Source: an uncultured Boseongicola sp. (lineage in GTDB: Bacteria > Actinomycetota > Acidimicrobiia > Spongiisociales > ZC4RG35). Taken from it: a DNA stretch of 64,000 bases. Below are positions 1,553 to 42,935 of the stretch, piece after piece; the first letter of the stretch is position 1; each line of letters begins with the position of its first letter. Where the stretch lies: contig CAXMMT010000031.1 of NCBI GenBank assembly GCA_964194555.1, forward strand, positions 1,338 to 65,337. Reading direction: 5' to 3'. The position numbers and the translations under genes were made by a program. Below the pieces are notes generated by a model. It was not told where the DNA came from. It did not search any database and worked only from the letters and a program-made list of their open reading frames with translations.

Positions 1553-1603
1553 CAGTCAGGGGTAGACGGTGAGATGCGATCTCCGCGCTGTGCTCGCATG
1601 GGT

Positions 1604-1625: not shown

Positions 1626-1644
1626 GATCGAAAGTAGTCCTGGC

Positions 1645-7087: not shown

Positions 7088-7102
7088 AGCGGGTGCGCCG
7101 GT

Positions 7103-7309
7103 TTACAGACCGTCGGGGGCGACCACCTCGCGTGGCATGTTGGGCTCCTCGGGACTCAGGGCCCTCACCCACGCCGACAGACCGACAAAACCGTCAGATC
7201 CCCCCTGACGAGCGGTCTTCTCCTGGCGAAGGATCTGATGTATGACGACGGCGATAACCGCCGCCTCGAACTCGTCGGCGCCGCCCCTGATCTCGAACCC
7301 CTCAGTCAT
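7103..7309 (-). CDS. small protein resembling the acyl-CoA carboxylase epsilon subunit
   Basis: 68 aa with high GC3. FEIRGGADEFEAAVIAVVIHQIL matches the I-R/K-V-x-x-G-x-x-x-E-E-x-AA-x-x-AV pattern of AccE/PccE, and a later W-containing tail is present. Its start overlaps the mce stop by 8 nt. The context fits propionyl-/methylmalonyl-CoA metabolism. Confidence 0.4.
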   Translation of the reverse strand: MTEGFEIRGGADEFEAAVIAVVIHQILRQEKTARQGGSDGFVGLSAWVRALSPEEPNMPREVVAPDGL

Positions 7310-30783: not shown

Positions 30784-31470
30784 CTATCCCCGACGGTCCT
30801 GACGCAGGAGTGTCCGCACCGCAGAGTTCTTCCACAGGTTTCCGAACTGCGACCACTGCCGACGCTTGTCGATAAGGCTGGCCGTCATCGAGACGGGCTC
30901 ACTGCTTCCGAAGTGGCCACTCAGTTCTGTCAGTGTGTGCTTCCAGATCTTGTCTTCGAGACGACTGGTGTAGATCCTGAAGCTGGCCTCGTAGAGAGGA
31001 TCGTTGGCCCGGACCAGCAGGTGGATGCGAGTCACCGTCTCCCCGTCGTCATCCTCGTAGGCGCTGAAGGTGATGATGGCCGCCCAGGGGTGTCCTTCGG
31101 GCGTCATGTATGACCAGGAACGCTCATCCGCATAGATGACACGAACCCCGGTGGAGATTTTGGCTGGGCCAACGCCGCCACCGATGATGGCGATCTCACC
31201 CGGTGCAATGCCCCCCGCTGGTGCGTAGAACTTGTTTGACGGATACCAGAAGTCGCCGAAGTGCTCCTTCCAGGTGGCGATCACTTTCTCCGGGGTGGGA
31301 CCCGGAATCGAAACTTCATAGGTCTTCTGCCATAGCTGACCGAACCCCTGGAGAGGTCCGGTGGGCTTGCGGCCTTCGACGTTGCCTGTGACGGCACCTT
31401 CGGCGACCTCACCTACTTTGAATTCGTCAATCGGCTTCGCCCAATTCTCGGCATCTCTTGGTTCAGACAT
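30784..31470 (-). CDS. hypothetical soluble protein (possibly DUF1990-like)
   Basis: 228 aa with high GC3. The ATG at 31470 is preceded by GGGAGAAG. The family assignment is from memory of the sequence pattern and is weak. Confidence 0.55.
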   Translation of the reverse strand: MSEPRDAENWAKPIDEFKVGEVAEGAVTGNVEGRKPTGPLQGFGQLWQKTYEVSIPGPTPEKVIATWKEHFGDFWYPSNKFYAPAGGIAPGEIAIIGGGVGPAKISTGVRVIYADERSWSYMTPEGHPWAAIITFSAYEDDDGETVTRIHLLVRANDPLYEASFRIYTSRLEDKIWKHTLTELSGHFGSSEPVSMTASLIDKRRQWSQFGNLWKNSAVRTLLRQDRRG

Positions 31471-31490: not shown

Positions 31491-31525
31491 GTTCTACGGG
31501 ATTGCCGTTCCGCAACCGTTACGAA
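31491..31525 (-). promoter_or_regulatory. GTAACG direct-repeat promoter, site e (upstream of 30784..31470)
   Basis: Minus strand: TTCGTAACG-gttgc-GGAACG-gcaatcccg-TAGAAC, then 20 nt containing the RBS, then the ATG at 31470. Same architecture as the sites at 35935, 36640, 37534 and 40315. Confidence 0.55.
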
Positions 31526-31573
31526 GTCCGGTTAACCGTGTCGTAACGCCAAATACGCCACAATCGGTTCTGA

Positions 31574-32962
31574 GTGAGCGATTTCGATACGACAATTGTC
31601 GGAGCCGGCCCCAACGGCCTGGCCGCCGCCGTGGAGATGGCCCGTGCTGGAAGGAAAGTGCTCCTGATCGAAGGAGCCGACGAGATAGGGGGAGGCACTA
31701 GGACCGAAGAGTTGACCCTTCCTGGGTTCCTACATGACGTCTGCTCGGCAGTGCACCCGGCCGGTGTCGCTTCGCCGTTCTTCAAAGAACTTGGGTTGGA
31801 TGTCGAATGGATACAGCCACCGACCCCGTTCAGCCACCCTCTCGACGGTGGCAGGTCGGTGGCTCTTCACCGCTCCGTCGGGGAGACTGCCGGTCAGTTG
31901 GGTGTCGACGAGTCCGCCTATGCCGGTTTGATGGAGCCCATGGTGAAAGGCATCGATGAGCTCATCGAAGATGTCCTCGCACCAGTAACAATCAACCCCA
32001 AACACAAGACCAAGTTCGCCCGGGTCGCCGCCATCGGCAGCCTGTCGGCATCCCTGTTGGTGAAGCGATTCAAGACCGAGGGGGCCAGAGCATTGATCGC
32101 CGGTCTGGCGGCTCACTCCATAGCACCATTCAATGCGCCGGCTACGTCCGCCGTGGGGATAATGCTCGGTGCGATTGGCCACCATTACGGCTGGCCATTG
32201 GCGAAAGGCGGTTCGATGAGCATCGCCATGGCCCTGGCAGATCGACTGGACGAACTCGGCGGCGTCATCGAGACGGGGCGATGGGTGGACGACATCCGCG
32301 AGTTGCCTGGTGAGGCTGTTCTTCTCGACGTGATGCCTCCCGCGGCCTACCGGATCGCCAAGGATCGGCTCTCCCCATCGAGTCTGCGACGGCTCCCCAG
32401 GTGGAAGCCGGGACCGGGAGTCTTCAAAGTGGATTGGGCGCTGAGCGAGCCAATCCCCTGGGCCGACCCGTTGAGCGGCCAGGCGGCCACGGTCCATGTG
32501 GGTGGCTCCTATGAGGAAGTGGAGGCCGCCGAAAGCGCCGTGTTCAAGGGAGAACACCCGGATCGGCCCTTCGTGCTGATGGCACAACAATCTCAGTTTG
32601 ATGAAACCCGTGCCCCCGACGGGAAGCACACCGCGTGGGGCTATTGCCATGTGCCCAACGGCTCGGACGTGGACATGACCGAGAACATCGAGAAACAGAT
32701 CGAGCGTTTTGCGCCCGGTTTCAGGGATGTCATCCTGGAACGGTCCACCCGGAACGCAGCTCAGTATCAGACCTACAACCCCAACTACGTAGGCGGGGAC
32801 ATCGGTGGGGGCGGGTTCGGGCTGAAGAAGATCATGCAGATGGGCGCCAAACGCCCGTATCAACTGGGCGGCGGGGTTTATCTGTGCTCATCTGCCACCC
32901 CGCCAGGCGCAGGCGTTCACGGCATGTGCGGCTATTACGCGGCGAGAGCGGCTCTAACCTGA
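31574..32962 (+). CDS. FAD/NAD(P)-dependent oxidoreductase, phytoene-desaturase (CrtI)-related
   Basis: N-terminal dinucleotide fold TTIVGAGPNGLAAAVEMARAGRKVLLIE and a C-terminal ...GGGVYLCSSATPPGAGVHG. Confidence 0.85.
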   Translation: MSDFDTTIVGAGPNGLAAAVEMARAGRKVLLIEGADEIGGGTRTEELTLPGFLHDVCSAVHPAGVASPFFKELGLDVEWIQPPTPFSHPLDGGRSVALHRSVGETAGQLGVDESAYAGLMEPMVKGIDELIEDVLAPVTINPKHKTKFARVAAIGSLSASLLVKRFKTEGARALIAGLAAHSIAPFNAPATSAVGIMLGAIGHHYGWPLAKGGSMSIAMALADRLDELGGVIETGRWVDDIRELPGEAVLLDVMPPAAYRIAKDRLSPSSLRRLPRWKPGPGVFKVDWALSEPIPWADPLSGQAATVHVGGSYEEVEAAESAVFKGEHPDRPFVLMAQQSQFDETRAPDGKHTAWGYCHVPNGSDVDMTENIEKQIERFAPGFRDVILERSTRNAAQYQTYNPNYVGGDIGGGGFGLKKIMQMGAKRPYQLGGGVYLCSSATPPGAGVHGMCGYYAARAALT

Positions 32963-32966
32963 AAAG

Positions 32967-32999
32967 GGGTATATACGATACCCACTCTTGGGTATATAC
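32967..32999 (+). promoter_or_regulatory. vapBC promoter/operator: two GGGTATATAC direct repeats, the second containing a TATACT -10
   Basis: GGGTATATAC at 32967-32976 and again at 32990-32999, each embedding the palindrome GTATATAC. TATACT ends 6 nt before the vapB ATG at 33007, which implies a leaderless mRNA. Confidence 0.5.
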
Positions 33000-33006
33000 T
33001 TCCATC

Positions 33007-33237
33007 ATGACCAAGCGTCTGATAGAAATAGATGACGAGTTGCTCGACATGGCCAGAGAACTGGCCGACGCCGAAACCATCAAAGGAACCGTGGAAGAAG
33101 CCTTGAGAAGGCTCGTCAGAATCGAATCAACCAAACTACATATCGAGGAGCTCGCTGAATCACTCGAGCCAAACGCCGTTGAGCTCCTCGAGGAATCCAG
33201 ACGCGTCAACCCGCCGCCCGGTGGCTTTCCTGATTGA
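33007..33237 (+). CDS. vapB: type II antitoxin, VapB-like (ribbon-helix-helix)
   Basis: MTKRLIEIDDELLDMARELADAETIKGTVEEALRRLV. 76 aa. Overlaps the downstream PIN gene. Confidence 0.75.
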   Translation: MTKRLIEIDDELLDMARELADAETIKGTVEEALRRLVRIESTKLHIEELAESLEPNAVELLEESRRVNPPPGGFPD

Positions 33238-33628
33238 CACGTCGGTCTGGGGGCGAGACAACCAGCCGGCTATTCAGGAGCGACTGCAAGAGTTGAATCG
33301 CGCGCAGAGCATCTGGACATGTCGGGCGGTTGATTTAGAGACTGTGTATAGCGCTCGAGCGAGAGATGCGGCGGCCCATGTTTATCGTCGGAGACTCATG
33401 CTCGACGTCCCTATCACCACGGCGATCATGGATCGCTCCCTCGACGTTACAGCCGAAATGGCTTCTGCTGGGCTCCACCGCCACGCCAAGCCAATGGACC
33501 TCATCATCGCGGCTGCAGCGGAGGCCGAGGATCTCACCGTCCTCCACTACGACCGGGATTTCGATCACATCGCCTCAGTCACCGGCCAACCAACCGAGTG
33601 GGTGGCCCCTCCCGGGAGCCTGGGCTAG
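33221..33628 (+). CDS. vapC: type II toxin, PIN-domain ribonuclease VapC
   Basis: VAFLIDTSVW (first acidic residue)...DLIIAAAAEAEDLTVLHYDRDFDHIA. The GTG at 33221 is in frame and gives a 17-nt overlap with vapB. Confidence 0.85.
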   Translation: MAFLIDTSVWGRDNQPAIQERLQELNRAQSIWTCRAVDLETVYSARARDAAAHVYRRRLMLDVPITTAIMDRSLDVTAEMASAGLHRHAKPMDLIIAAAAEAEDLTVLHYDRDFDHIASVTGQPTEWVAPPGSLG

Positions 33629-33635
33629 ACCAGCC

Positions 33636-34001
33636 CTAAGCCGCTGCAGCCGACTCCTCATCGTCGAAGATGACGATCGCCTCGTCGAGACGGGTGAGGG
33701 CAAAGATCTCCCGATAGTGCTCGGTGAGCCCGTACGCCCGCAGAGCGTGTCCGCTTCTTTGGGCCCGGATGAGAGTCGTCACCAGGAGGCCTATTCCTCC
33801 ACTATTCATGTACTCCAGTCCGGTGAAGTTGAGGATGACGGCCTTCGCTCCCTCCCCGGCGGCCTCGTGGGCCGTAGTGATTTCTTTCTCGGAGAATGAG
33901 GTGATCTCTCCTTCGATGTCGATTACCCGTACTCCGTCTCCGATGTCTCTTACATTCATGGTCAGATTTGTCGTAGGCACAGATCCCTCTCCTTGTCTCA
34001 T
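33636..34001 (-). CDS. STAS-domain anti-sigma-factor antagonist (RsbV/SpoIIAA-like), copy 2
   Basis: ILNFTGLEYMNSGGIGLLV contains the conserved phosphorylatable Ser. ATGA overlap with copy 1. Confidence 0.85.
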   Translation of the reverse strand: MRQGEGSVPTTNLTMNVRDIGDGVRVIDIEGEITSFSEKEITTAHEAAGEGAKAVILNFTGLEYMNSGGIGLLVTTLIRAQRSGHALRAYGLTEHYREIFALTRLDEAIVIFDDEESAAAA

Positions 34002-34333
34002 TTCCCCAGATTGGCGTCTTCGTAGATATGCATGAAGTCGGACAAGCGGGTGATCTGAAAGACCTCCCGATAATGCTCGGTCAGACCGTAGGCACCGACC
34101 TCTCGTGCTTCGGCCCGGGCCATTGCCAGAATCCCGACGATGACTGCGATGCCGGTCGAATTGATGTACTCGACGGCTCCAAAGTCGAGAAGAATCTCGC
34201 CAGGTGTAGCCAAGGCCTTCTCGTAGGCCTCCTCCATCCCACCTTTCGCGGCACGATTGACGACCCCGCTCAACTCAATGACAGAGCCTTTGTCTGTGGA
34301 CGTCACTGTTGCCTTAAACCCGTCCTCTGGCAT
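33998..34333 (-). CDS. STAS-domain anti-sigma-factor antagonist (RsbV/SpoIIAA-like), copy 1
   Basis: LLDFGAVEYINSTGIAVIV. Shares ...YGLTEHYRE.F..TRL... with copy 2. TAATG overlap with the upstream phosphatase-kinase gene. Confidence 0.85.
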   Translation of the reverse strand: MPEDGFKATVTSTDKGSVIELSGVVNRAAKGGMEEAYEKALATPGEILLDFGAVEYINSTGIAVIVGILAMARAEAREVGAYGLTEHYREVFQITRLSDFMHIYEDANLGK

Positions 34334-35928
34334 TAGGAATCTCCTTCCCGCTTCATCACGAGTTCGACGGTATGCGTTCCGTTCTCGCTGCTTCTCCTGA
34401 CCTCATCGACCATCTGACCGATGAGAAACAATCCCCATCCCCTGGGACTCTGGTCCCCCGCCAGCTTCGCCTCGAGATCGGGGCGCTCAGCATCGGGGAT
34501 CTCTTTGTCACCACCCTGGTCGGTGACCCTGACTGTCACTGTTGTCCCGGTAGCAGCCACTACGACTCCCACCTCGAGCTCGGCGTCGTACTCGTTGCCA
34601 TGTTCGATGGCGTTCATGACCGTCTCGCCAACTGCGGTCTTGAGGCGCTCGAACTTCGCCGGATCCAGACCCAGCGGACCCACAACATCTGCAACTTTGG
34701 TGATGGCCGTCCTCTCGTTGCCTTCCTCGCTAGCCAACGTGAAACTCGTCAAGACTTGTCCCGAGGTGGTATTGCCAAATGCCGCCGCAGCCCGCTCGGC
34801 CGATGCGGTCCTCTTCACCACTACAAGGGTGATGTCGTCTTCCTGCTCGGCGTCAGGCCCCGTCCACTTCTCCAGATCCGTGACAAGAGCGTTGACCATG
34901 TCGTCGCCCTTCGGCTTCTTGGCCACCTGACCCATCAAGCGTCCGAAGCCATACATTTCTCCTTCGATGTTGTGCGCCTCGGTGATGCCGTCGCTGGTGA
35001 GAACCATCACTTCGCCGTCCTGGAGCGCGTAGGTGCGCTCCTCGTATTCCATGTCCCTCATCAGCCCCAAAGGCATCCCGGTGGCCCTCAGCTCGATTAC
35101 GCCGTTTGCATTCCGGACATATGGAAGGTTGTGCCCGGCGTTGGCAAACACCAGATCGCCGCTCTTGGTGTCGATGATGGCGTAGAGGCACGTGACAAAC
35201 ATGGCCGGCGGAATCTCAGGAACGAGGTTGTTGTTGACATCATCGAGCACAGCCGACGGTGAGTCGTAACGCAGGGCCGCCCCCCGAAGCATTGATCGAC
35301 AGCTGGCCATCACCAGGGCCGCCGGGACACCCTTATCGGTCACGTCGCCGATGACGACGCCGAGTTTCCCCTCGCCCAGATCTATGAAGTCGTAGAAGTC
35401 GCCGCCGACGGCACGGGCGGGTCGATAGAAGGCATCGACATGCCATCCCGCAATGGTGGGAAGCTCTTTGGGTAACAGGGTCTGTTGGATCAGAGCAGCG
35501 ACCTGGAGCTCCTGGTTGATGCGCTCCATCTCCTTCGCTTCCGCTTGCTGCTCCTGAACCAACTGGGCGACCTTCATTGCCGGAGCGACCTGGGAGGCCA
35601 GACTGCCCAGAAGACGGCGATCGTCGGTCGAATAGGGCTGATCGGAGAGACGGTTGCCGAGGTAGAGGGCACCGAGCAGTTCGCCTTGACCTATCAGCGG
35701 AACAATGAGCTCGACTCCCGAGTCCTTGAGCTGGTCGATCGCATCCGAGCTGAGGTCGATGTCCTCTAACTCCACCGGACCGCCACTGGAAAGCAGAAGC
35801 GTTTCGAGCGGGTCACCCGGGGAAATGTCGATCGGGTCGATCAGCTGGGTTTTGGACGTCGCAACCGGGTCCGGAGCAGTCTCTGCAGCTCCTTCTCTCG
35901 TCTTTCGGCGCTTTCTGAGCGACTCCAT
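34333..35928 (-). CDS. fusion protein: partial GAF, PP2C/SpoIIE phosphatase and RsbW/SpoIIAB-type HATPase (anti-sigma kinase-like)
   Basis: PP2C motifs GGDFYDF, GDVTDKGVPAAL, LTSDGITEA and EDDITLVVV. The C-terminal 130 aa carry the N-box VMNAIEHGN and the G-box RGWGLFLI. Confidence 0.85.
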   Translation of the reverse strand: MESLRKRRKTREGAAETAPDPVATSKTQLIDPIDISPGDPLETLLLSSGGPVELEDIDLSSDAIDQLKDSGVELIVPLIGQGELLGALYLGNRLSDQPYSTDDRRLLGSLASQVAPAMKVAQLVQEQQAEAKEMERINQELQVAALIQQTLLPKELPTIAGWHVDAFYRPARAVGGDFYDFIDLGEGKLGVVIGDVTDKGVPAALVMASCRSMLRGAALRYDSPSAVLDDVNNNLVPEIPPAMFVTCLYAIIDTKSGDLVFANAGHNLPYVRNANGVIELRATGMPLGLMRDMEYEERTYALQDGEVMVLTSDGITEAHNIEGEMYGFGRLMGQVAKKPKGDDMVNALVTDLEKWTGPDAEQEDDITLVVVKRTASAERAAAAFGNTTSGQVLTSFTLASEEGNERTAITKVADVVGPLGLDPAKFERLKTAVGETVMNAIEHGNEYDAELEVGVVVAATGTTVTVRVTDQGGDKEIPDAERPDLEAKLAGDQSPRGWGLFLIGQMVDEVRRSSENGTHTVELVMKREGDS

Positions 35929-35934
35929 GATCCC

Positions 35935-35969
35935 TTTCTACCTCGCCAGCGTTCCGAAAACGTTACGAG
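35935..35969 (-). promoter_or_regulatory. GTAACG direct-repeat promoter, site a (partner-switching operon, predicted leaderless)
   Basis: Minus strand: CTCGTAACG-ttttc-GGAACG-ctggcgagg-TAGAAA-gggatc-ATG(35928). The -10-like hexamer ends 6 nt before the ATG. Confidence 0.6.
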
Positions 35970-36112
35970 TCTCAGGAGCAGAGTGCACTTGGACCACCCT
36001 GCAGTTGTGTGGGTACTGGCCTCCGGCGGAAGCCAATAGCGCCCGCACCAAGAAAGGGACCGTCACGAATCGACTCGTCACTGTTCCACCATCCCTCCGT
36101 GAACTGACAGTG

Positions 36113-36607
36113 CTATCCCACCGCCGTTGGTGTTTCCACAAGGTTGGTGTTGGTGGAAACGAGTCGGGCTCCCAGAAGCTCAGACATGGCCGCGCACCCT
36201 TCACGCATGACGTTGTGATGGGCCCGGACCAGAATCGGCTTGGCGAATCCAGCGACGAAGTTCATCCACGGCTTCGTCGTCGACACATACCAATTGAACC
36301 TGACATGGGTCTGATTATCGCGAGTCTCCAGTAGGTAGGTGCCCGTCCCGATCAGGTCGCCTCGAATAACACTCTTGATCCTGACAGGCCGATCCACCTC
36401 GACCACCTTTGCCTCGAAATCCATCGCGTAACCAAGCGGGCTCCTGATCGAGTAGGAGGCGCGAGTACCCAACCCGTCGGCGCCCCCCTCGTCGAGCAGC
36501 CTGGAGTTCTTGACCGACGGCCACCAGGCCGAGAATTTCTCCGGATGTTCTAGGACCTCATAGACCTTTTCGATCGGTGCGGTAAGCACCCACTCCGTTT
36601 CGAACAT
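36113..36607 (-). CDS. SRPBCC (START/Bet v1-like, polyketide cyclase/dehydrase fold) protein
   Basis: MFETEWVLTAPIEKVYEVLEHPEKFSAWWP is a typical SRPBCC N-terminus. The ATG at 36607 follows GGAAGGAGGG. Longer starts at 36688 and 36802 are possible but would cover promoter site b. Confidence 0.7.
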   Translation of the reverse strand: MFETEWVLTAPIEKVYEVLEHPEKFSAWWPSVKNSRLLDEGGADGLGTRASYSIRSPLGYAMDFEAKVVEVDRPVRIKSVIRGDLIGTGTYLLETRDNQTHVRFNWYVSTTKPWMNFVAGFAKPILVRAHHNVMREGCAAMSELLGARLVSTNTNLVETPTAVG

Positions 36608-36639
36608 GTAATGGACCACTTGTCCCTCCTTCCACTCTT

Positions 36640-36675
36640 CGTTATCGCACGTGCCCGCTACAGGATCGTTACGAG
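36640..36675 (-). promoter_or_regulatory. GTAACG direct-repeat promoter, site b (upstream of the SRPBCC gene)
   Basis: Minus strand: CTCGTAACG-atcctg-GTAGCG-ggcacgtgc-GATAAC, then a 5'UTR with the GGAAGGAGGG RBS, then the ATG at 36607. The inter-repeat spacer is one nt longer than at the other sites. Confidence 0.45.
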
Positions 36676-36714
36676 AGGGTTGAAACATGGTTCCAAGTCC
36701 GCCAAGTTGGGGGC

Positions 36715-37029
36715 GTGACTTCATTAGAGCCGGCTCGCCACGCTTTGTATGCTGTACTCGAGGACGTCCTCGGAACCGAGCACGCCGAAACACTGATGAC
36801 ACATCTACCCCAACACGAGTCCGACCAAGTGGCCACCAAGGCCGATCTGGGAAGGGTCGAGACGCGGATAGATGACAGGTTCGATCGCATGGAGGATCGT
36901 TTCGATGAACGTTTCAACCGGATGGAAGTTCGGATTGACAAGATGAACCGCAACTTCATCACTGTCTCCTTCGGCACCCTCACCGTGATGACCGCAATCT
37001 TCGCCTTCCTCACGAAGATGTGGGTGTAG
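36715..37029 (+). CDS. tail-anchored coiled-coil protein, paralog 1 (DUF1640-like pattern)
   Basis: GTG start. EPARHALYAVLEDVLGTEHAETLMTHLPQHESDQVATKADL, then RF-heptads (DRFDRME DRFDERF NRMEVRI DKMNRNF), then one C-terminal TM helix. Confidence 0.65.
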   Translation: MTSLEPARHALYAVLEDVLGTEHAETLMTHLPQHESDQVATKADLGRVETRIDDRFDRMEDRFDERFNRMEVRIDKMNRNFITVSFGTLTVMTAIFAFLTKMWV

Positions 37030-37084
37030 AGCCTCCTTCCCATAGGTCTTGAAACCGTCTGACCAGGGCGGCATAGTCGAACCA

Positions 37085-37438
37085 ATGTCATCAGTAGAAC
37101 CAGCCCGTCACGCCCTGTACTCTGTTCTCGAGAATGTTCTCGGCGAGCAACACGCGGACACCCTGATGACACATCTTCCCCAACACGAGTCCGAGGAGGT
37201 CACCACCAAATCGGACCTGAAGGTCCTGGAGGACAGTGTTGATGGGCGATTCAATATCGTGGACGAGCGATTCAATCGGGTCGACGAGCGATTTGATCGC
37301 ATGGAAGACAGGTTTGACGCACTCAACCTTCGATTCGATGCCCTCCATCAGACACTGCACACGCAGTTCAGGAACTACACCGTGACAATGGTGGGTGCCA
37401 TGACCGCGCTGACAGCCATCTACACCTTCCTCAACTAG
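37085..37438 (+). CDS. tail-anchored coiled-coil protein, paralog 2
   Basis: MSSVEPARHALYSVLENVLGEQHADTLMTHLPQHESEEVTTKSDL, five xRF(D/N)xxx heptads and a C-terminal TM helix. The track start at 37049 adds 12 aa that are absent from paralog 1. Confidence 0.65.
   Translation: MSSVEPARHALYSVLENVLGEQHADTLMTHLPQHESEEVTTKSDLKVLEDSVDGRFNIVDERFNRVDERFDRMEDRFDALNLRFDALHQTLHTQFRNYTVTMVGAMTALTAIYTFLN
37244..37348 (+). repeat. five tandem 21-nt units encoding xRF(D/N)xxx heptads inside paralog 2
   Basis: gggcgattcaatatcgtggac / gagcgattcaatcgggtcgac / gagcgatttgatcgcatggaa / gacaggtttgacgcactcaac / cttcgattcgatgccctccat. Confidence 0.8.
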
Positions 37439-37533
37439 ACGCCGGGTCCTCTCGCACCCAGACGCCGACAGACGACGGCTGCATAGTCTCCTCGACGCAT
37501 CGACAAACGTTCCGGGAATCGTCGCCTTCATCA

Positions 37534-37568
37534 GCCGTAACGGTACGGTTATCTTCCCGCACGAGAAG
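37534..37568 (+). promoter_or_regulatory. GTAACG direct-repeat promoter, site c (upstream of the SARP regulator; possible autoregulation)
   Basis: GCCGTAACG-gtacg-GTTATC-ttcccgcac-GAGAAG. This is the most degenerate of the five sites. Confidence 0.4.
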
Positions 37569-37613
37569 AGAGGAACCGAACTGCTCGACATACGGCTAAT
37601 TGGCCCACCCGAA

Positions 37614-40313
37614 GTGACTCTCGAAGGCTTGCACGTCGAGGTTGACACCCGAAAGGCCATCGCTCTGCTCGCGTACCTCGCCGTCGAACACACCGCCTCG
37701 AGGGACACGCTCTCGACACTTTTCTGGGTCGACTCGCCCACAGATCGAGCCCGAGCCACGCTACGCCGTACTCTTTCCTCTCTCCGATCAGGGGTCGGGA
37801 GCGACGCCATAGCGGCCGACCGTCATAGCGTCTCACTTGAAGACGGCGCGGGCATCGACCTTGCCCATTTCGAACAGGCTCTCGGAGAGATGGCCAACCA
37901 CGACCACGGGCCAGAAGAAGTCTGCCCCATGTGTATTCCTCACCTCCGCAAGGCCACCGCCCTTTACAGGGGGGACTTCCTCGAGGGCTTCTCGGTTCGT
38001 GACGCTCCGGGGTTTGAGGATTGGGCGCGAAACATCACCGAATCTCTCAGAATGAAGGCTGGCGAGACCTTCCATCGTCTTGGCATGGCGCTTGCTGCCG
38101 ACGGTGACTATCCATCGGCAATCGCCGCTGTTTCACGATGGGTCGAACTCGATGAACTGCACGAACCCGCCCATCGCCTTCTCATGCTGTTGAACGCCTG
38201 GGCGGGTGACCGACCCGGCGCTGTGGAGGCCTATCGGAACTTCGTCGCAATCCTCGACCGGGAGCTTGGCGTTCCACCTCTCGATGAGACCACCGAGCTC
38301 CACGAGGCAATCCTCGACGAGGATCTGCCACCAGCGCCTGGCCTGCGGCGCCGAATCAGAGCCGCTTCACGGATCACGCCGAAGGGCGATGACTTGCTAG
38401 ATCGCCTGGACGAAATGCAATCGCTTCGCGATGCTCTGGGATCGATCGGCTCTCGGGGGGATGTCGTGTCTGTCTCCGGGACTGCATGGATGGGAAAAAC
38501 CCGACTCCTCGAGGAACTCGCCTCCGAAGCAAGAGGTAGCGGAACCGGAGCACTGATCGGCAGGTCGTTTCGAATGGAGCAAGGTCTTCCCTACGGGGTG
38601 GCCACCCAGATCCTTCGTAGCGGAGAGACACTCATCAAGGCGAGCGAAGGCGAAATCCCGCCGTGGGCTCTGATCGAGGCGTCCCGGCTCGACCCGTCTT
38701 TGGCTTCGAGCAACTCACCGGCCGACTTTGACCGATTTGGCGAGCTCCGACTGTTCGAAGCTGTATACGAGATCCTCTCAGTCGTCTCCCACTCCCGGCC
38801 TCTTCTCCTCATCGCCGATGACATTCAGTGGATCGACTCCGCCTCGGCTTCCTTGTTGTCGTATTTGGGACACCGCATCGGCGATCTCCGGGTCCTCATG
38901 CTGCTGGCACACAGGGCGGGAGACCCCCTTCCCGACGCAATCGGCGATGTCATCGGTTCGGCCCTGGAGGTGAAACTGGCTCCTTTGACCCCAGATGACT
39001 TGAAGATGGTTGTCGAAGACTCCGATCGGGCAATCGAGATCATCGCTCAGACCGGAGGTGTCCCCCTTCTCGCCCGTGAGGCGATCGCAGTAGATGGCAA
39101 GGGCAGCGACGACCTCTCCGGTGTCGAGCGCTACATGGAGTCAAAGTTGCGCGATGCCAGCGAGTTGAGCAAGCAGGTCCTGGCAACTGCGGCCGTCCTT
39201 ACCGGCGTATGCGATGCGTCTCTACTGAAAAGGACATCGGGAAGATCGGAAGAGGAGGTGGTCGAGGCCGTCGAGGAGCTGATAGGTATCGGACTGCTCC
39301 GCGAAGTTCCTGAGGGCGATGGACTCAGTTTCACACTCGATTCGCTGGAGAAATTGTCGTACGACTCTTTGTCGCTGATACGACGGCGTCTGCTGCATCG
39401 TCGGGCTGGCGAAGCTCTTGCAGACAGACCTCGTTCCGCCACCGACCCTCTTCTTGCTGCAGGTGTGGCCGCCCAGTTCCGCGGAGCCGGTGATCCCCGG
39501 GCAGCCGACTGGTATCGCGTCGCAGGTGACCTGGCGCGCGGTGTCTATGCCAACGCCGAGGCTCACAGCTTCTACGAAGCAGCGATCGCCCTCGGATCGG
39601 TTGCCGTTGGCGAGCTGCGTTTGGGTCTCGCCGATCTGGCGATGACAAGGGGGGACTACACAACTGCGATCCAGGAGCTGACTGCTGCGGCCGCACAGTC
39701 CGACGGCGAATTACTGGGGATTATCGAGCACAGGCTCGGTGACGCCAATCGACTGCTCGGCCGCTTCGACATGGCAGCCGAGCATTTTCAACGATCCGTC
39801 GAAACACATCCCGAACTCGCGGGGCTCTACGCCGATTGGGCTCTTCTCGAACAGCGTATGGGCAACACGGAGAACGCTTTCGCCATGGCCGAGAAGGCTA
39901 GAGCCGCCGCAGACGAATCTGCCAACGACCTGGTCCGGTCGCGCGTTCTGAATGTCTCCGGCATCGTGGCCGACGATCCGGCGGTCGCTATGCAGTACCT
40001 GGATGAGGCGCTGCAGCTCGCCGGTGACGATGAGTTGGCCAGGATGGCCGTTCTGAACAACCGCGCCCACCTACTGCTCCAGATCGGCAATGGCGACGGG
40101 GCCATTCGTCTGATCGAGGAGGCGATCGGGATCGCGGCGAGCACAGGTCACCGGCATCGCGAGGCGGCACTTCACAATCATCTAGCTGACCTTCATCACA
40201 TCGCCGATCGTGAGAGTGAGGCCGAAGCGGCGATGACAGAGGCGGTTGCCCTGTTTGCCGACATCGACGCAGGAGCGTGGGAGCCCGAACTGTGGCTGTT
40301 GTCCAGATGGTGA
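37614..40313 (+). CDS. SARP-family regulator: OmpR-type winged helix, BTAD, AAA/NB-ARC-like ATPase and TPR (AfsR-like STAND architecture)
   Basis: RKAIALLAYLAVE...LSTLFW...RATLRRTLSSLR (wHTH), LYRGDFLEGF...E.AHR.LM......GDRPGAVEAYR.F...L..ELGVPP (BTAD) and Walker A GTAWMGKTRLL, followed by about 350 aa of TPR-like repeats. The N-terminus probably extends upstream of the GTG at 37614 (see findings). Confidence 0.85.
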   Translation: MTLEGLHVEVDTRKAIALLAYLAVEHTASRDTLSTLFWVDSPTDRARATLRRTLSSLRSGVGSDAIAADRHSVSLEDGAGIDLAHFEQALGEMANHDHGPEEVCPMCIPHLRKATALYRGDFLEGFSVRDAPGFEDWARNITESLRMKAGETFHRLGMALAADGDYPSAIAAVSRWVELDELHEPAHRLLMLLNAWAGDRPGAVEAYRNFVAILDRELGVPPLDETTELHEAILDEDLPPAPGLRRRIRAASRITPKGDDLLDRLDEMQSLRDALGSIGSRGDVVSVSGTAWMGKTRLLEELASEARGSGTGALIGRSFRMEQGLPYGVATQILRSGETLIKASEGEIPPWALIEASRLDPSLASSNSPADFDRFGELRLFEAVYEILSVVSHSRPLLLIADDIQWIDSASASLLSYLGHRIGDLRVLMLLAHRAGDPLPDAIGDVIGSALEVKLAPLTPDDLKMVVEDSDRAIEIIAQTGGVPLLAREAIAVDGKGSDDLSGVERYMESKLRDASELSKQVLATAAVLTGVCDASLLKRTSGRSEEEVVEAVEELIGIGLLREVPEGDGLSFTLDSLEKLSYDSLSLIRRRLLHRRAGEALADRPRSATDPLLAAGVAAQFRGAGDPRAADWYRVAGDLARGVYANAEAHSFYEAAIALGSVAVGELRLGLADLAMTRGDYTTAIQELTAAAAQSDGELLGIIEHRLGDANRLLGRFDMAAEHFQRSVETHPELAGLYADWALLEQRMGNTENAFAMAEKARAAADESANDLVRSRVLNVSGIVADDPAVAMQYLDEALQLAGDDELARMAVLNNRAHLLLQIGNGDGAIRLIEEAIGIAASTGHRHREAALHNHLADLHHIADRESEAEAAMTEAVALFADIDAGAWEPELWLLSRW

Positions 40314-40314
40314 T

Positions 40315-40350
40315 CTCGTAACGGTCCGGTAACGCGGCGCCTGGCAATAT
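40315..40350 (+). promoter_or_regulatory. GTAACG direct-repeat promoter, site d (upstream of the tandem membrane paralogs)
   Basis: CTCGTAACG-gtccg-GTAACG-cggcgcctg-GCAATAT. It starts 2 nt after the SARP stop codon. The ATG at 40361 lies about 11 nt after the -10-like element. Confidence 0.55.
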
Positions 40351-40459
40351 CGAGGTCTCAATGGCTCAAACAAAACGCGTTTCGTGGTTGCTACTTGTCG
40401 CGTGACTCGTCTTCGCCGTCTCGGTCGTCGCTTCAGTAGTCCTATGGCCAACCATCCAC

Positions 40460-41455
40460 GTGTTCCTGGGACTCGTTGCCAACACGCTCATATTGGTCAG
40501 CGGGTCGATAATCGTCTTGAAGGCCGACCAACAAACCATCGGCTGGATTCTTGTCTTCCTCGGTCTCATTTTCATGATCACTGGGGGAGTCTTGCTGGGT
40601 ATTCAGAACGCCTATCAAACCCAATGGACGCGCGTGGTGACCGAGGCAGGAATTGGCGGACTGTGGCTGTTCATCTACCTGATATTGATCTTCCCCAGCG
40701 GTGAACTACCCACCCGCTTCTCGAGAGTGCTGCTTTGGATCGCCGGCATCGGGGCGATCGCTCTTTCAATTGTCGGCGTTCGAACCGCTCTCTTCTACGG
40801 CGAGGGCGGTTACGCCGAGAGTTTTTTGGGCGTGGTCTTTTTCGCAGTTCTGATGCTTGCCGCCATTGTGATTCACCTCGTCCATCTTCGTTATCGGAGC
40901 TCTATTGAGAAGCGTCAGCTCAAGTGGTTCATCTTTGCCCTGAATGTCACCATGTCGCTCTACTTGGTCGCGAGCGCCTTTGGCGTACCCGAGACCACAT
41001 TCCTAGTGATCGACGCCTTTGCCACTTCGTTTTGGCCAATCGCGATCCTCATCGCCATCACCCGCCATCGCCTATACGACATCGACCGCATTGTTTCGAG
41101 AACCGCCTCATACGCCATCGTGGTTGGTCTGCTCGCAGCGGTCTTCTTTGGCGTCGTGACCGCGGTGACAGCCCTACTCCCGACACAGAACGCGCTTGCG
41201 GTGGTTGGATCGACTCTTGTTGTGGCGGCCCTCTTCAACCCGGTGCGTCTCCGAGTCCAGCAGTGGGTGGATCGACGGTTCAACCGGAGCCATTACGAGG
41301 CGCAAGGTGTCATCGACTCTTTTGCAGCCACCCTTCAGGACGAGCCAGCTATCGAAAACCTCGTCGAACGTCTCCAAGCGGTCGTGATCGAGACAATGGG
41401 CCCATCGTTGACCGGCACATGGGATAACACTGGCGTCGGCAATGACACCTCCTGA
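40460..41455 (+). CDS. polytopic membrane protein with a sensor-kinase-like N-terminal module but no kinase domain, paralog 1
   Basis: About 8 TM helices, then ITRHRLYDIDRIVSRTASYAIVVG...ALFNPVRLRVQQWVDRRFNRSHYEA.... The GTG at 40460 is the first start after an in-frame TGA. The homologous N-terminus begins at the ATG at 40361 (see findings). Confidence 0.65.
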   Translation: MFLGLVANTLILVSGSIIVLKADQQTIGWILVFLGLIFMITGGVLLGIQNAYQTQWTRVVTEAGIGGLWLFIYLILIFPSGELPTRFSRVLLWIAGIGAIALSIVGVRTALFYGEGGYAESFLGVVFFAVLMLAAIVIHLVHLRYRSSIEKRQLKWFIFALNVTMSLYLVASAFGVPETTFLVIDAFATSFWPIAILIAITRHRLYDIDRIVSRTASYAIVVGLLAAVFFGVVTAVTALLPTQNALAVVGSTLVVAALFNPVRLRVQQWVDRRFNRSHYEAQGVIDSFAATLQDEPAIENLVERLQAVVIETMGPSLTGTWDNTGVGNDTS

Positions 41456-42599
41456 GACCACCGGCAACCGCAAGCTCTGGTGGGTACTGCCCATATGGTT
41501 CGTCGCGGTGGCCCCCTCGTGGGTGTTCATCGGGGTCGGCTTCGACTTCTCCCTGATCTGGATCGCAGTTCAATTCGCTCTACTCGCATCCGGAATCCTG
41601 ATCCTCGCCAACGTGCGAAGACACAAAGTTGGACTACTCCTCTTCGTTGCAGGCGCCACCCTCTCCCTCGCACCCCCACTGTTTGCGACCGTGGAAGTCC
41701 TCGAGGACGTACTGCCCGAGATTGTCGGCGCAATCGCATTGGCAGTTGGGAGCGTTCTCATCACAATCTGGCTCCCATTGAACATTGCCGCAATAGCGCT
41801 CTTTCCCACCGGGGACTGGCCGACGCGAAAATGGCGCTATCCAGGCTTTCTGGTCGGTGTGTCGTTGGGTCTGGCTGTCCTCGCCCCGATGTTGAACGGT
41901 GGTTTTGGCGGCGACAACTCAGACGGTGATGCCACCCCATGGGCAACTGCGATTGCTCCGGTTGGCGACATCGTCTCCAACCTCTTCTTCTTGTCGCTGC
42001 TGTTTTCCGCCGTAGTGGCTCTCACCTCGGTGATCTATCGATTCATCAGATCCGATGGAATCGAGCGTCAGCAGATGAAGTGGTTCGCGCTCTCGGTTTC
42101 GATCCTGACCGTGGGATTCTTCCTCGATCAGACGGTTCTCGGGTTAACGGCCGCTGAAGGCTGGCGGGCGGTTGGGGTCGGGTTCCTCGTCATCCAGACA
42201 CTGGTGGTGATGGCCGTCGCCATCATCAAGTATCGCATCTATGAGATCGACCGAATCATCTCGAGGACCGTCTCCTACGTTCTGGTGGCCGGGATGCTCG
42301 TCTCTCTCTTCTTCGTTGTTGTCACCGGGATCACATCGTTTCTCCCGTCTCAAAACTCACTGGCTGTTGCGGCTTCGACTCTCGCCGTCGCCGCCCTATT
42401 CAATCCACTTCGGATTCGCGTTCAACGCGGCGTCGATCGTCGATTCAATCGGGACCGATATCGGCGCCAGCAGGTCATCGATGATTTCGCTTCGGGGCTA
42501 CAGGATCAGACGGATCTCGAGGATCTTGCCGACGACCTGAGCACCGTCGTCGAGTCAGTGCTCCAACCGTCGTCGGTTGGCGTCTGGATCAGGGACTGA
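41442..42599 (+). CDS. polytopic membrane protein, paralog 2 (kinase-less sensor-like module)
   Basis: IIKYRIYEIDRIISRTVSYVLVAG...ALFNPLRIRVQRGVDRRFNRDRYRRQ...SSVGVWIRD. 14-nt overlap with paralog 1. Confidence 0.7.
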   Translation: MTPPETTGNRKLWWVLPIWFVAVAPSWVFIGVGFDFSLIWIAVQFALLASGILILANVRRHKVGLLLFVAGATLSLAPPLFATVEVLEDVLPEIVGAIALAVGSVLITIWLPLNIAAIALFPTGDWPTRKWRYPGFLVGVSLGLAVLAPMLNGGFGGDNSDGDATPWATAIAPVGDIVSNLFFLSLLFSAVVALTSVIYRFIRSDGIERQQMKWFALSVSILTVGFFLDQTVLGLTAAEGWRAVGVGFLVIQTLVVMAVAIIKYRIYEIDRIISRTVSYVLVAGMLVSLFFVVVTGITSFLPSQNSLAVAASTLAVAALFNPLRIRVQRGVDRRFNRDRYRRQQVIDDFASGLQDQTDLEDLADDLSTVVESVLQPSSVGVWIRD

Positions 42600-42665
42600 C
42601 CCGCTCTGTCGGGAGACGGTCACGCGCTAAAGCATTCGCGCAAATCTGCCGAAGCTATTCGGGTT

Positions 42666-42935
42666 ATGACTGTTTCAGACATTGTTCTCGACGAATGGGC
42701 AACAAGACCACTGGGCAAGGCTGCGCGAATAGCGATCGCAGCGGGCGGGATGATCACCGCCACACTTGTTCTCCTGATGGCGACCATGCTGACCAGCGGC
42801 GCATGGCTCTTTGTCCTCGCCGGGGTTGCCCTCGCGGCCACTTCAGTGCGAGCAGCCAGGTTCCCGACCATCACCCGACTCGGTGTAGTGGCGGCCAATC
42901 TCGTCGCTATACCGCTCATCGCCCAGATCATCTAA
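42666..42935 (+). CDS. small hypothetical membrane protein (3 predicted TM helices)
   Basis: 89 aa, hydrophobic, with high GC3. No recognisable motif. Confidence 0.45.
   Translation: MTVSDIVLDEWATRPLGKAARIAIAAGGMITATLVLLMATMLTSGAWLFVLAGVALAATSVRAARFPTITRLGVVAANLVAIPLIAQII

What the first reader, a model, noticed from the sequence alone, without database searches (positions are those of the whole stretch)
31491..40350. Five promoters share a GTAACG direct-repeat architecture matching SARP-dependent promoters, centred on a SARP-AAA-TPR regulator
Read directly, in gene orientation:
- Site a (35969->35935, minus): CTCGTAACG-ttttc-GGAACG-ctggcgagg-TAGAAA-gggatc-ATG of the PP2C/kinase fusion.
- Site e (31525->31491, minus): TTCGTAACG-gttgc-GGAACG-gcaatcccg-TAGAAC, then RBS and ATG at 31470.
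- Site d (40315-40350, plus): CTCGTAACG-gtccg-GTAACG-cggcgcctg-GCAATAT, then ATG at 40361.
- Site b (36675->36640, minus): CTCGTAACG-atcctg-GTAGCG-ggcacgtgc-GATAAC, then RBS and ATG at 36607.
- Site c (37534-37568, plus): GCCGTAACG-gtacg-GTTATC-ttcccgcac-GAGAAG, upstream of the SARP gene.
The hexamers repeat at 11 bp (12 bp in site b). If read as heptamers, the 3' repeat ends 8 bp before a -10-like nAnAAn hexamer, and there is no separate -35. This is the layout described for Streptomyces SARP targets (ActII-ORF4, DnrI and AfsR type): heptameric direct repeats on one helix face, with the last repeat 8 bp from the -10. I found GTAACG-N5-G(G/T)(A/T)A(C/T/G)(C/G) followed by such a -10-like hexamer at none of the other intergenic GTAACG hits I checked, apart from a degenerate copy at 1602-1619 (see rejected list). 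All five sites lie within 9 kb of the only SARP gene. The implied regulon is the sigma-less partner-switching operon, an SRPBCC protein, a DUF1990-like protein, the regulator itself and the tandem kinase-less sensor-like membrane proteins. As far as I know this wiring has not been described.
Basis: partly seen in the sequence, partly recalled or inferred. Interest (0 to 1): 0.8.

Follow-up and report, generated by a model that had tools for sequence, protein, structure and literature searches.

The report
Conserved SARP-type promoter motif and regulon
A short repeated DNA motif (CGTAACG, then a related 7-mer 11 bases on) sits just upstream of six neighbouring genes around a SARP-family regulator gene and is kept at the same promoters in many related uncultured actinobacteria. 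It is very probably that regulator's binding site, which defines a new but mechanistically ordinary regulon.

Summary
Four sites (a, e, d, b) share one register: CGTAACG-N4-(C/G/T)G(G/T)(A/G)(A/G)CG-N9-(-10-like hexamer).

Site c is a conserved single CGTAACG, 7 nt upstream of a TAnnnT -10 here (6-7 nt across loci).

A weight matrix built only from orthologous loci ranks e, a, d and b as the window's top four hits. The motif sits at the same promoters in all eight distinct orthologous loci (regulator 55-82% identical). An exact-pattern scan of metagenomes found 113 stretches. In the 80 fetched, about 75 have the motif upstream of the same gene families.

The regulator has a SARP fold (AfsR/EmbR matches, pLDDT 90) followed by a P-loop ATPase and TPR region. 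The PP2C-kinase gene appears leaderless. That places the repeats at about -39..-33 and -28..-22, within 1 bp of the AfsR afs box.

Binding by this SARP is inferred, not shown (confidence about 0.7). Verdict: a new member of a known kind, a SARP regulon outside antibiotic clusters that includes a partner-switching operon with no sigma-factor gene.

The parts
31491..31523 (-). Site e, promoter of the DUF1990-like gene: CGTAACG (31523-31517), gttg, CGGAACG (31512-31506), N9, TAGAAC (31496-31491). An RBS follows, then ATG at 31470.
   Evidence: Top PWM hit, 29.9. Conserved in L007, L010, L014 and L016.
31531..31573 (+). Site f (new), promoter of the FAD-oxidoreductase gene, divergent from e: weak upstream repeat GTTAACC (31531-31537), gtgt, CGTAACG (31542-31548), N10, CACAAT (31559-31564), then 9 nt to GTG at 31574.
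   Evidence: CGTAACG-N9/10-CACAAT is conserved in L007, L010 and L014.
35935..35967 (-). Site a, promoter of the GAF-PP2C-HATPase gene: CGTAACG (35967-35961), tttt, CGGAACG (35956-35950), N9, TAGAAA (35940-35935), then 6 nt to ATG at 35928. There is no RBS, so the mRNA is predicted to be leaderless.
   Evidence: The same layout occurs in 7/7 orthologous loci and in about 29 non-identical metagenome promoter sequences.
36641..36673 (-). Site b, promoter of the SRPBCC gene: CGTAACG (36673-36667), atcc, TGTAGCG (36662-36656), N9, GATAAC (36646-36641). An RBS follows, then ATG at 36607.
   Evidence: PWM score 18.7. Conserved in L007 and L010.
37508..37555 (+). Site c region, the regulator's own promoter: invariant CGTTCCG (37508-37514), 21 nt, a single CGTAACG (37536-37542), 7 nt, then TATCTT (37550-37555), a TAnnnT -10. 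An RBS lies at about 37566-37574 and the probable CTG start at 37581.
   Evidence: CGTTCCG, CGTAACG and TAnnnT are conserved in 8/8 loci.
40317..40350 (+). Site d, promoter of the two tandem membrane-protein paralogues: CGTAACG (40317-40323), gtcc, GGTAACG (40328-40334), N9-10, GCAATAT (-10-like CAATAT 40345-40350). It begins 4 nt after the SARP stop codon.
   Evidence: PWM score 24.7. Conserved in L007, L009, L010 and L013.
37581..40313 (+). Large SARP regulator: wHTH, BTAD, P-loop AAA_16/STAND ATPase and TPR. The probable start is CTG at 37581, because no ATG/GTG/TTG lies upstream of GTG 37614 and orthologues begin (M/L)LDIRLLGPPEV.
33636..35928 (-). Target operon: GAF-PP2C(SpoIIE)-HATPase_c_2 fusion (34333-35928) followed by two STAS proteins (33998-34333 and 33636-34001). 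The operon holds no sigma-factor gene.
   Evidence: Synteny.
36113..36607 (-). Target gene: SRPBCC (Polyketide_cyc2) protein.
   Evidence: Synteny.
30784..31470 (-). Target gene: 228-aa protein with a weak DUF1990 match (E 0.0011, below the Pfam cut-off).
   Evidence: Synteny.
31574..32962 (+). Probable target gene: FAD/NAD-binding amine-oxidase-like oxidoreductase.
40361..42935 (+). Target genes downstream of site d: a membrane-protein paralogue (40361/40460-41455, with an in-frame TGA at 40403), a second paralogue (41442-42599), and a conserved 89-aa protein (42666-42935). None belongs to a Pfam family.

Best explanation
These sites are the operator-promoters of a local regulon controlled by the adjacent large SARP (wHTH-BTAD-STAND ATPase-TPR).

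Proposed mechanism:
- Two SARP domains bind side by side to two heptamers 11 bp apart, CGTAACG followed by CG(G/T)(A/G)(A/G)CG. Some relatives have a third upstream heptamer.
- The repeats occupy about -39 to -22, where a -35 element would normally sit.
- From there the bound SARP recruits or adapts RNA polymerase to a weak -10 (TAGAAA or nAnnnT) about 9 bp downstream, as shown structurally for AfsR.

Predicted targets:
- the leaderless GAF-PP2C-kinase operon with its two STAS genes;
- an SRPBCC protein;
- a DUF1990-like protein;
- the divergent FAD oxidoreductase;
- a family of unknown polytopic membrane proteins, followed by a conserved 89-aa protein gene.

At its own promoter the regulator has a single heptamer 7 bp from a canonical TAnnnT -10 (6-7 bp across loci). 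That is 2-3 bp out of the activator register, so I infer autoregulation, probably negative.

Shown here: the motif, its significance, its conservation and gene association, the SARP fold, and the geometry. Inferred: that this SARP is the binder, the direction of regulation, and the transcription starts.
For: 1. Significance. 3 exact matches against 0.01 expected. 6 of 9 heptamers lie in 917 nt of intergenic DNA, P about 1e-11, all in gene orientation. The ortholog-only PWM puts e, a, d and b on top.

2. Conservation. The same heptamers sit at the same promoters in L007, L009, L010 and L013-L016 (L011 and L012 are further copies of the L010 locus), where the regulator is 55-82% identical. The spacers between heptamers vary.

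3. Motif-first test. TCGTAACG-N4-CGGRACG-N9-TAGAA found 113 metagenome stretches. Of the 80 fetched:
- 28 lie directly upstream of PP2C orthologues, plus 4 more judged by eye;
- 2 lie upstream of the DUF1990-like gene;
- 32 lie upstream of the membrane-protein family, plus about 9 more judged by eye;
- about 5 lie upstream of other or unclear genes.

4. The regulator is a SARP. BTAD, AAA_16 and TPR domains. Profile matches to AfsR 8k60 at E 9e-10 and EmbR at E 6e-7 over residues 2-319. The model of residues 1-262 has pLDDT 90, and its Foldseek top six are AfsR and EmbR at E about 1e-11. The helix segment R-A-T-L-R-R-T-L-S-x-L (residues 58-68), which I take to be the recognition helix, is invariant or nearly invariant across 26 orthologues, in keeping with the invariant heptamer.

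5. Geometry. The heptamer-plus-4-nt-spacer unit equals the SARP 11-bp unit. PimR uses heptamers with 4-bp spacers, in two or three copies (PMC5930380). The 3' repeat is 8-9 bp from the -10 (rule quoted in PMC10936776).

6. Position. TAGAAA is followed by 6-7 nt and then the conserved ATG, with no RBS, in about 25 loci. This fixes the repeats at about -39..-33 and -28..-22, against the AfsR afs box at -40..-19.

7. No alternative promoter or regulator. The site-bearing intergenic regions have no sigma-70-type -35/-10 pair. The SARP is the only DNA-binding protein conserved in the neighbourhood, and sites flank it on both sides.
Against: - There is no binding, expression or TSS data.
- The motif also occurs upstream of membrane-protein paralogues on contigs with no SARP within up to 12 kb (L095, L047). 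Adjacency is therefore not universal, and a regulator acting in trans from elsewhere cannot be excluded.
- L020, a relative about 86% identical at the nucleotide level, lacks the 9.1-kb segment that carries the SARP yet keeps an intact e site.
- The heptamer pair resembles the GlnR box (gTnAc-n6-GaAAC).
- The heptamer never varies among the orthologues, so co-variation between protein and site could not be tested.
- TAGAAA lacks the usual T at -7.
- The c site does not fit the activator register.
Confidence: 0.7

Rival explanations
1. The repeats are bound by a different OmpR/PhoB-type winged-helix regulator encoded elsewhere, for example a GlnR-like orphan response regulator. The SARP would then be one of its targets rather than the binder.
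For: - GTAAC-n6-GGAAC/GGGAC resembles the GlnR a/b sites gTnAc-n6-GaAAC (PMC10235972).
- Direct repeats with 11-bp periodicity are generic to the OmpR family.
- The motif occurs at membrane-protein genes with no SARP within 12 kb.
- The motif survives in a relative that lacks the SARP segment.
Against: - None of the target genes is a nitrogen-metabolism gene.
- Typical GlnR cis elements have two boxes with four sites; here there are two or three heptamers.
- The fixed 8-9 bp distance to the -10 and the replacement of the -35 are the SARP hallmark.
- In the window, 6 of the 9 CGTAACG/CGTTACG heptamers lie within the 9 kb around the SARP gene, and no strong double-repeat site lies in the remaining 55 kb (best PWM score 13.0).
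- No such response regulator is conserved in the neighbourhood. LuxR-type response regulators appear in some loci only.
Confidence: 0.12
2. The conserved blocks are the -35 and -10 elements of an alternative sigma factor, for instance the one controlled by the PP2C/STAS partner-switching module, which would then be auto-regulated.
For: - The operon encodes an RsbW/SpoIIAB-like kinase domain and two STAS antagonists, and such operons are often transcribed by their cognate sigma.
- GTAAC resembles ECF-type -35 cores (own knowledge).
- In a-type sites, GTTT-N14-GGTAGA loosely resembles SigB/F promoters (own knowledge; sequences).
Against: - CGTAACG and the -10 hexamer are 20 bp apart, too far for a -35/-10 pair.
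- A sigma model explains neither the second heptamer in the spacer, nor the third heptamer a further 11 bp upstream, nor the direct-repeat nature of the motif.
- The TTT in the spacer is confined to a-type sites.
- The -10 hexamers differ between promoter classes (TAGAAA, CACAAT, cAnnnT, GATAAC) while the heptamers stay constant.
Confidence: 0.05
3. The similarity is non-regulatory: a chance pattern, recent duplication of one promoter segment, or a small mobile repeat.
For: One of 100 simulated sequences gave a PWM score of 22.9. A few CGTAACG copies inside genes are explained by codons, namely those of the VDRRFNRxxY motif of the membrane-protein family.
Against: - Only the heptamers and the -10 are conserved, while spacers and flanks differ, so this is not a duplicated segment.
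- Four hits score at least 18.7, and the sites cluster in intergenic DNA (P about 1e-11).
- The motif is kept at orthologous promoters where the regulator is down to 55% identical, and in 113 metagenome stretches.
Confidence: 0.01

Closest known systems
AfsR of Streptomyces coelicolor (large SARP: SARP-NOD-TPR) and its afs box at the afsS promoter
   Same: - Same domain order: wHTH-BTAD, P-loop NTPase, TPR.
- Same fold of the N-terminal 260 residues.
- Two direct repeats of an 11-bp unit overlap the -35 position. The predicted position here, -39..-22, compares with -40..-19 for AfsR.
- Weak -10 and no usable -35.
   Different: - About 24% identity in the SARP domain. The NCBIfam AfsR equivalog score is 43 bits against a cut-off of 1430, so this is not an AfsR orthologue.
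- The repeat sequence is different (CGTAACG).
- The relatives that carry names are annotated Acidimicrobiia or Actinomycetota MAGs.
- The targets are signalling and membrane genes next to the regulator, not afsS or antibiotic pathways.
PimR / SanG / PolR-type SARP operators (heptamers CGGCAAG with 4-bp spacers)
   Same: Heptameric direct repeats separated by 4-nt spacers, in two or three copies. At least two copies are needed for binding (PMC5930380). The 3' heptamer here (CGGAACG/CGGGACG) shares CGG and the A at position 5 with CGGCAAG.
   Different: The PimR main operator does not overlap the -35, whereas these sites do. PimR has a single target gene inside an antibiotic cluster. Here there are six or more promoters and no biosynthetic cluster.
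EmbR of Mycobacterium tuberculosis (SARP with FHA domain)
   Same: A SARP-fold regulator outside Streptomyces that controls genes unrelated to antibiotics. It is a structural match to the model (E about 3e-11).
   Different: EmbR carries a C-terminal FHA domain instead of ATPase-TPR. As far as I know, no comparable repeat motif has been defined for it.
GlnR boxes of actinobacteria
   Same: Pentamer cores 11 bp apart (gTnAc-n6-GaAAC), bound by tandem winged-helix domains.
   Different: - The usual GlnR cis element has two boxes with four sites.
- Its targets are nitrogen-metabolism genes.
- As far as I recall, GlnR boxes are not held at a fixed 8-9 bp from the -10.
- No GlnR-like gene lies in these loci.

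Membership tests
SARP family regulator (large SARP subclass) | N-terminal OmpR-type winged-helix DNA-binding domain | tested here: met
   - Pfam Trans_reg_C alone was not detected.
- The orthologue profile aligns residues 2-319 to AfsR and EmbR, including their wHTH.
- The AlphaFold model (pLDDT 90) shows a strand-helix-helix-wing N-terminus and superposes on the AfsR and EmbR SARP domains.
SARP family regulator (large SARP subclass) | Bacterial transcriptional activation domain (BTAD) after the wHTH | tested here: met
   PF03704 at E 1.5e-20 over residues 93-245.
SARP family regulator (large SARP subclass) | Central NB-ARC/AAA (STAND) ATPase and C-terminal TPR domain | tested here: met
   AAA_16 at E 1.6e-17 and TPR_12 at E 1e-16. 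The P-loop GxxWMGKT and the Walker B DD are invariant in 26 orthologues.
SARP family regulator (large SARP subclass) | Actinobacterial origin | tested here: met
   The close homologues that carry a name are from Acidimicrobiia or Actinomycetota MAGs. The window's own organism name could not be retrieved.
AfsR orthologue | Score above the NCBIfam equivalog cut-off for AfsR | tested here: not met
   43 bits against a cut-off of 1430. Filed as a SARP, not as AfsR.
SARP-dependent promoter | Direct (not inverted) repeats spaced 11 or 22 bp | tested here: met
   Heptamer-N4-heptamer in a, e, d, b and, weakly, f. Three heptamers at 11-bp steps occur in many metagenome promoters. Site c has one heptamer only.
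SARP-dependent promoter | 3' repeat about 8 bp upstream of the -10 element | tested here: met
   There are 9 nt between the 7-mer and the hexamer in a, e, b and d, which is 8 nt if the repeat is read one base longer. The gap is 9-10 nt in f and g-type sites. It is not met at site c, where the gap is 6-7 nt. The -10 elements are predicted, not mapped.
SARP-dependent promoter | Repeats overlap or replace the -35 element | tested here: met
   The site-bearing intergenic regions have no TTGACA-like -35 with 16-18 bp spacing. With the leaderless ATG taken as +1, the repeats span -39..-22.
SARP-dependent promoter | Specific binding and activation by the cognate SARP | not testable with these tools
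   Needs EMSA, footprinting or DAP-seq, plus expression data.
GlnR box | a site gTnAc and b site GaAAC separated by 6 nt, usually two boxes, at nitrogen-metabolism promoters | tested here: not met
   The core sequence is similar (GTAAC-n6-GGAAC). However, there is a single box with two or three heptamers, and none of the targets is a nitrogen gene.

The most novel reading that the evidence does not exclude
A large SARP, from a family known almost only as a switch for antibiotic gene clusters, is the conserved master of a signalling regulon in uncultured Acidimicrobiia and related actinobacteria. It would directly drive a leaderless PP2C-phosphatase/anti-sigma-type kinase fusion with two STAS partners and no sigma factor, together with an expanding family of unknown membrane proteins. 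On this reading the partner-switching module feeds back on the SARP's ATPase-TPR part, or on the membrane proteins, rather than on a sigma factor. That would be a sigma-independent circuit joining a STAND regulator to a partner-switching module.
Probability: 0.2. Interest if true: 0.7.

Novelty: new member of a known kind. Interest (0 to 1): 0.5.

Why it matters
- It extends SARP-type activation (tandem heptamers that replace the -35) to a deep-branching, mostly uncultured actinobacterial lineage, and to targets unrelated to antibiotic synthesis.
- It gives a defined operator (CGTAACG-N4-CGGRACG), predicted transcription starts, and six or more predicted promoters. These can be tested directly with a 262-residue DNA-binding fragment.
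- It assigns a shared regulatory context to several families of unknown function: a membrane-protein family of about 400 aa, an 89-aa protein, and the DUF1990-like and SRPBCC proteins.
- It raises a testable link between a STAND-type SARP and a partner-switching phospho-relay that has no sigma-factor gene in its operon.

Tried and rejected
- The genome-contig scan with the single protein returned only distant Actinoplanes STAND proteins (27-36% identity over the ATPase part; L001-L006).
- Pfam did not detect Trans_reg_C in the N-terminus. The question was settled by profile and structure instead.
- ECF/SigD-like reading (GTAAC as -35): rejected. There is no conserved CGT/GAT 16-18 nt downstream, and the distance to the conserved hexamer is 20 nt.
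- SigB/F-like reading (GTTT-N14-GGTAGA): this fits a-type sites only.
- Reading site c as a double repeat with GAGAAG as -10: rejected by the eight-locus alignment.
- The window hit at 60544 (PWM 13.0) is at the level of the null and was not pursued.
- The copy at 1602-1619 is an 11-bp tandem repeat.
- Intragenic CGTAACG-ggac-CGGTTGA in the membrane-protein paralogues is explained by codons of a conserved peptide.
- A search for another regulator shared by the membrane-gene loci that lack a SARP found none.
- SARP presence near the metagenome hits is uninformative for most loci because the contigs are short.

Full report
**1. What is in the sequence**

In gene orientation, four sites line up base for base.
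- a (35967->35935, minus strand): CGTAACG tttt CGGAACG ctggcgagg TAGAAA gggatc ATG
- e (31523->31491, minus strand): CGTAACG gttg CGGAACG gcaatcccg TAGAAC
- d (40317-40350, plus strand): CGTAACG gtcc GGTAACG cggcgcctg GCAATAT
- b (36673->36641, minus strand): CGTAACG atcc TGTAGCG ggcacgtgc GATAAC

Site c (37536-37542) has the first heptamer only.

It is upstream of the FAD-oxidoreductase gene, which is divergent from e. It reads GTTAACC gtgt CGTAACG ccaaatacgc CACAAT, followed by 9 nt and then GTG at 31574.

**2. Is it more than chance?**

- The exact pattern GTAACG-N5-GKWACG occurs 3 times against 0.01 expected.
- Nine CGTAACG/CGTTACG heptamers occur in the 64 kb. Six of them fall in 917 nt of intergenic DNA between 31.4 and 40.4 kb (Poisson P about 1e-11). 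All six point towards the adjacent gene.
- A weight matrix built only from 16 sites in other organisms' loci ranks e, a, d and b as the four best positions in the window on either strand, with scores of 29.9, 27.3, 24.7 and 18.7. The fifth hit scores 13.0. The best score per simulated sequence averaged 11.7, with one outlier of 22.9 in 100.

**3. Surroundings**

The gene at 37614..40313 has BTAD, AAA_16 and TPR domains. No ATG, GTG or TTG lies upstream of 37614 in frame, yet the frame continues as LLDIRLIGPPEV, which matches the N-termini of orthologues. The start is therefore probably CTG at 37581, behind an AGAGGA ribosome-binding site. It is the only SARP gene in the window.

The neighbouring genes are:
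- a GAF-PP2C(SpoIIE)-HATPase_c_2 fusion followed by two STAS genes, with no sigma-factor gene in the operon;
- an SRPBCC protein;
- a 228-aa protein with a sub-threshold DUF1990 match;
- an FAD oxidoreductase;
- downstream of site d, two paralogous membrane proteins and a conserved 89-aa protein, none in a Pfam family.

However, an in-frame TGA follows at 40403, and the same frame then stays open to 41455.

**4. Related loci**

The regulator has thousands of homologues. The named ones come from Acidimicrobiia or Actinomycetota MAGs. I fetched the DNA around homologues of 82, 63, 60, 57, 57, 55 and 55% identity (L007, L009, L010-L012, L013-L016).

Gene order is largely conserved. CGTAACG is present at the corresponding promoters in every locus, while the spacers between heptamers vary.

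- **a-type consensus:** CGTAACG-nTTT-CGGGACG-N9-TAGAAA, then 6-7 nt, then ATG.
- **e-type and d-type sites** keep both heptamers.
- **A further class, g,** is absent from the window. It precedes membrane-protein paralogues that are divergent from the regulator and reads CGTTGCG-N4-CGTAACG-N9-cAnnnT.
- **The regulator's own promoter,** in all eight loci, carries an invariant CGTTCCG, then 21-22 nt, then CGTAACG, then 6-7 nt, then TAnnnT, followed by the ribosome-binding site.

**5. Motif-first test**

I scanned the metagenome collection for TCGTAACG-N4-CGGRACG-N9-TAGAA, which gave 113 stretches. Of the 80 fetched:
- 28 lie immediately upstream of PP2C-fusion orthologues;
- 2 lie upstream of the DUF1990-like gene;
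- 32 lie upstream of the membrane-protein family.

Of the 18 that were not classified automatically, about 9 are membrane-family genes and 4 are PP2C starts cut off by contig ends. About 5 have other or unclear downstream genes; two of these (L034, L039) show the same 156-aa DUF6220-like membrane protein next to a SARP.

Essentially no hit looks random.

Many membrane-gene promoters, and the most divergent PP2C promoters, carry a third heptamer a further 11 bp upstream. The divergent PP2C promoters have TAGAAT, a canonical TAnnnT, in place of TAGAAA. This supports reading the hexamer as a -10.

In about 25 distinct PP2C promoters the hexamer is followed by 6-7 nt and then the conserved ATG, with no ribosome-binding site. 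The mRNA is therefore predicted to be leaderless. This pins the repeats at about -39..-33 and -28..-22.

**6. Is the regulator a SARP?**

- A profile of 26 orthologues matches AfsR (8k60, E 9e-10, residues 4-319) and EmbR (2fez, E 6e-7).
- An AlphaFold model of residues 1-262 (mean pLDDT 90, pTM 0.85) has the AfsR SARP domain and EmbR as its only strong PDB matches (E about 1e-11, TM 0.65-0.70).
- The helix segment RATLRRTLSxL (residues 58-68), which I take to be the recognition helix, as well as the P-loop and the Walker B, are invariant or nearly invariant across the orthologues.
- The protein is not an AfsR orthologue: it scores 43 bits against the NCBIfam cut-off of 1430.

**7. Comparison with what is known**

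The AfsR structural paper states the rule for SARP targets: direct repeats 11 or 22 bp apart, with the 3' repeat 8 bp from the -10. It places the afs box at -40..-19, overlapping a poor -35, with two SARP protomers side by side contacting sigma region 4 and the core enzyme (PMC10936776).

PimR-type SARPs bind heptamers with 4-bp spacers, in two or three copies, and need at least two (PMC5930380; review PMC10972967).

The sites here have exactly this geometry. A consensus scan finds no sigma-70-type -35/-10 pair in the site-bearing intergenic regions.

I found no paper linking SARPs to Acidimicrobiia regulons or to partner-switching modules.

**8. Mechanism proposed**

Shown here: a conserved, highly specific, oriented tandem-heptamer element at a fixed distance from -10-like hexamers of six adjacent promoters, next to a gene for a protein with a SARP fold.

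Inferred:
- that this SARP binds the element as a side-by-side dimer, or as a trimer where three heptamers exist;
- that it activates transcription by substituting for the -35 contact;
- that its ATPase-TPR part gates this activity;
- that the single, out-of-register heptamer in its own promoter mediates autoregulation, probably negative.

I put the SARP-as-binder model at about 0.7.

**9. Rivals**

- **Another winged-helix regulator.** A GlnR-like or other OmpR-family regulator is the main rival (about 0.12).
  - For: the GlnR box gTnAc-n6-GaAAC is similar. Some motif-bearing membrane-gene loci have no SARP within 12 kb. L020, a relative with about 86% nucleotide identity, lacks the 9.1 kb from 32,940 to 42,032 that includes the SARP yet retains site e.
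  - Against: the identity of the targets, the fixed promoter geometry, the clustering around the SARP, and the lack of any other conserved regulator gene nearby.
- **An alternative-sigma promoter** (about 0.05). This fails to explain the second and third heptamers or the 20-bp distance.
- **Chance or duplication.** This is excluded.

**10. Verdict**

This is a new member of a known kind: the mechanism is textbook SARP. The operator sequence, the lineage, and a regulon built around a partner-switching operon that holds no sigma-factor gene and a family of unknown membrane proteins have not, to my knowledge, been described.

Interest is moderate (0.5).

Noticed in passing
window 40361-41455: The first membrane-protein paralogue downstream of site d starts with the family-typical N-terminus at ATG 40361. 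It has an in-frame TGA at 40403-40405, and the same frame then stays open for about 350 codons. This could be a recent pseudogene, a sequencing error, or use of the internal GTG at 40460. In L007 only a remnant of about 240 nt of this gene survives (ATG GCT TAG).
   Followed up: partly
L020 (PVMK01147067.1) 6647-7259, against window 32940 and 42032: A relative with about 86% nucleotide identity joins window position 32940 directly to 42032. It lacks the 9.1 kb that carries VapBC, both STAS genes, the PP2C fusion, SRPBCC, the SARP and most of the membrane genes. It still keeps an intact e-type site upstream of the DUF1990-like gene.
   Followed up: partly
window 37508-37514, and the same position in L007, L009, L010 and L013-L016: An invariant CGTTCCG, the reverse complement of the 3' heptamer CGGAACG, lies 28-29 nt upstream of the heptamer in the regulator's own promoter in 8/8 loci. 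Its role is unexplained. It could be an upstream operator shared by the divergent promoters.
   Followed up: partly
L007 9975-9992, L010 9855-9872, L013, L015, L016 (absent from window): In relatives, one to three further membrane-protein paralogues lie divergent from the regulator. They have their own site, CGTTGCG-N4-CGTAACG-N9-cAnnnT. The window lacks these genes and has a paralogue downstream of the regulator instead.
   Followed up: yes
L017-L096 (e.g. L030, L054, L062, L022, L031, L052): Many metagenome promoters have three heptamers at 11-bp steps, (T/G)GT(T/G)ACG-N4-CGTAACG-N4-CGGGACG. The membrane-gene class has a conserved leader of about 50 nt with GGAGGAGG before the start codon.
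   Followed up: partly
L007 8982, L015 3220, L016 6454 and 8747: CGTAACGggacCGGTTGAaacgacg recurs inside the membrane-protein genes on the antisense strand. It corresponds to codons of the conserved C-terminal peptide VDRRFNRxxY, so it reflects coding constraint and is not a site.
   Followed up: yes
window 1602-1630: GGTAACGCGGGATAAACGCGGGATAGATCG is a short 11-bp tandem repeat in an intergenic stretch. It is not the motif, and its function is unknown.
   Followed up: no
window 32990-33628: A VapB/PIN toxin-antitoxin pair sits between the FAD-oxidoreductase gene and the STAS genes in the window and in L007. L010 has a different 169-aa gene there, so this is a variable insertion within the otherwise conserved block.
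   Followed up: no
L034 and L039, about 118 nt downstream of the motif: An additional putative target class is a 156-aa membrane protein with a DUF6220 match just below the Pfam cut-off (27.9 against 29.8 bits). It lies behind a three-heptamer site, divergent from a more distant SARP homologue.
   Followed up: partly
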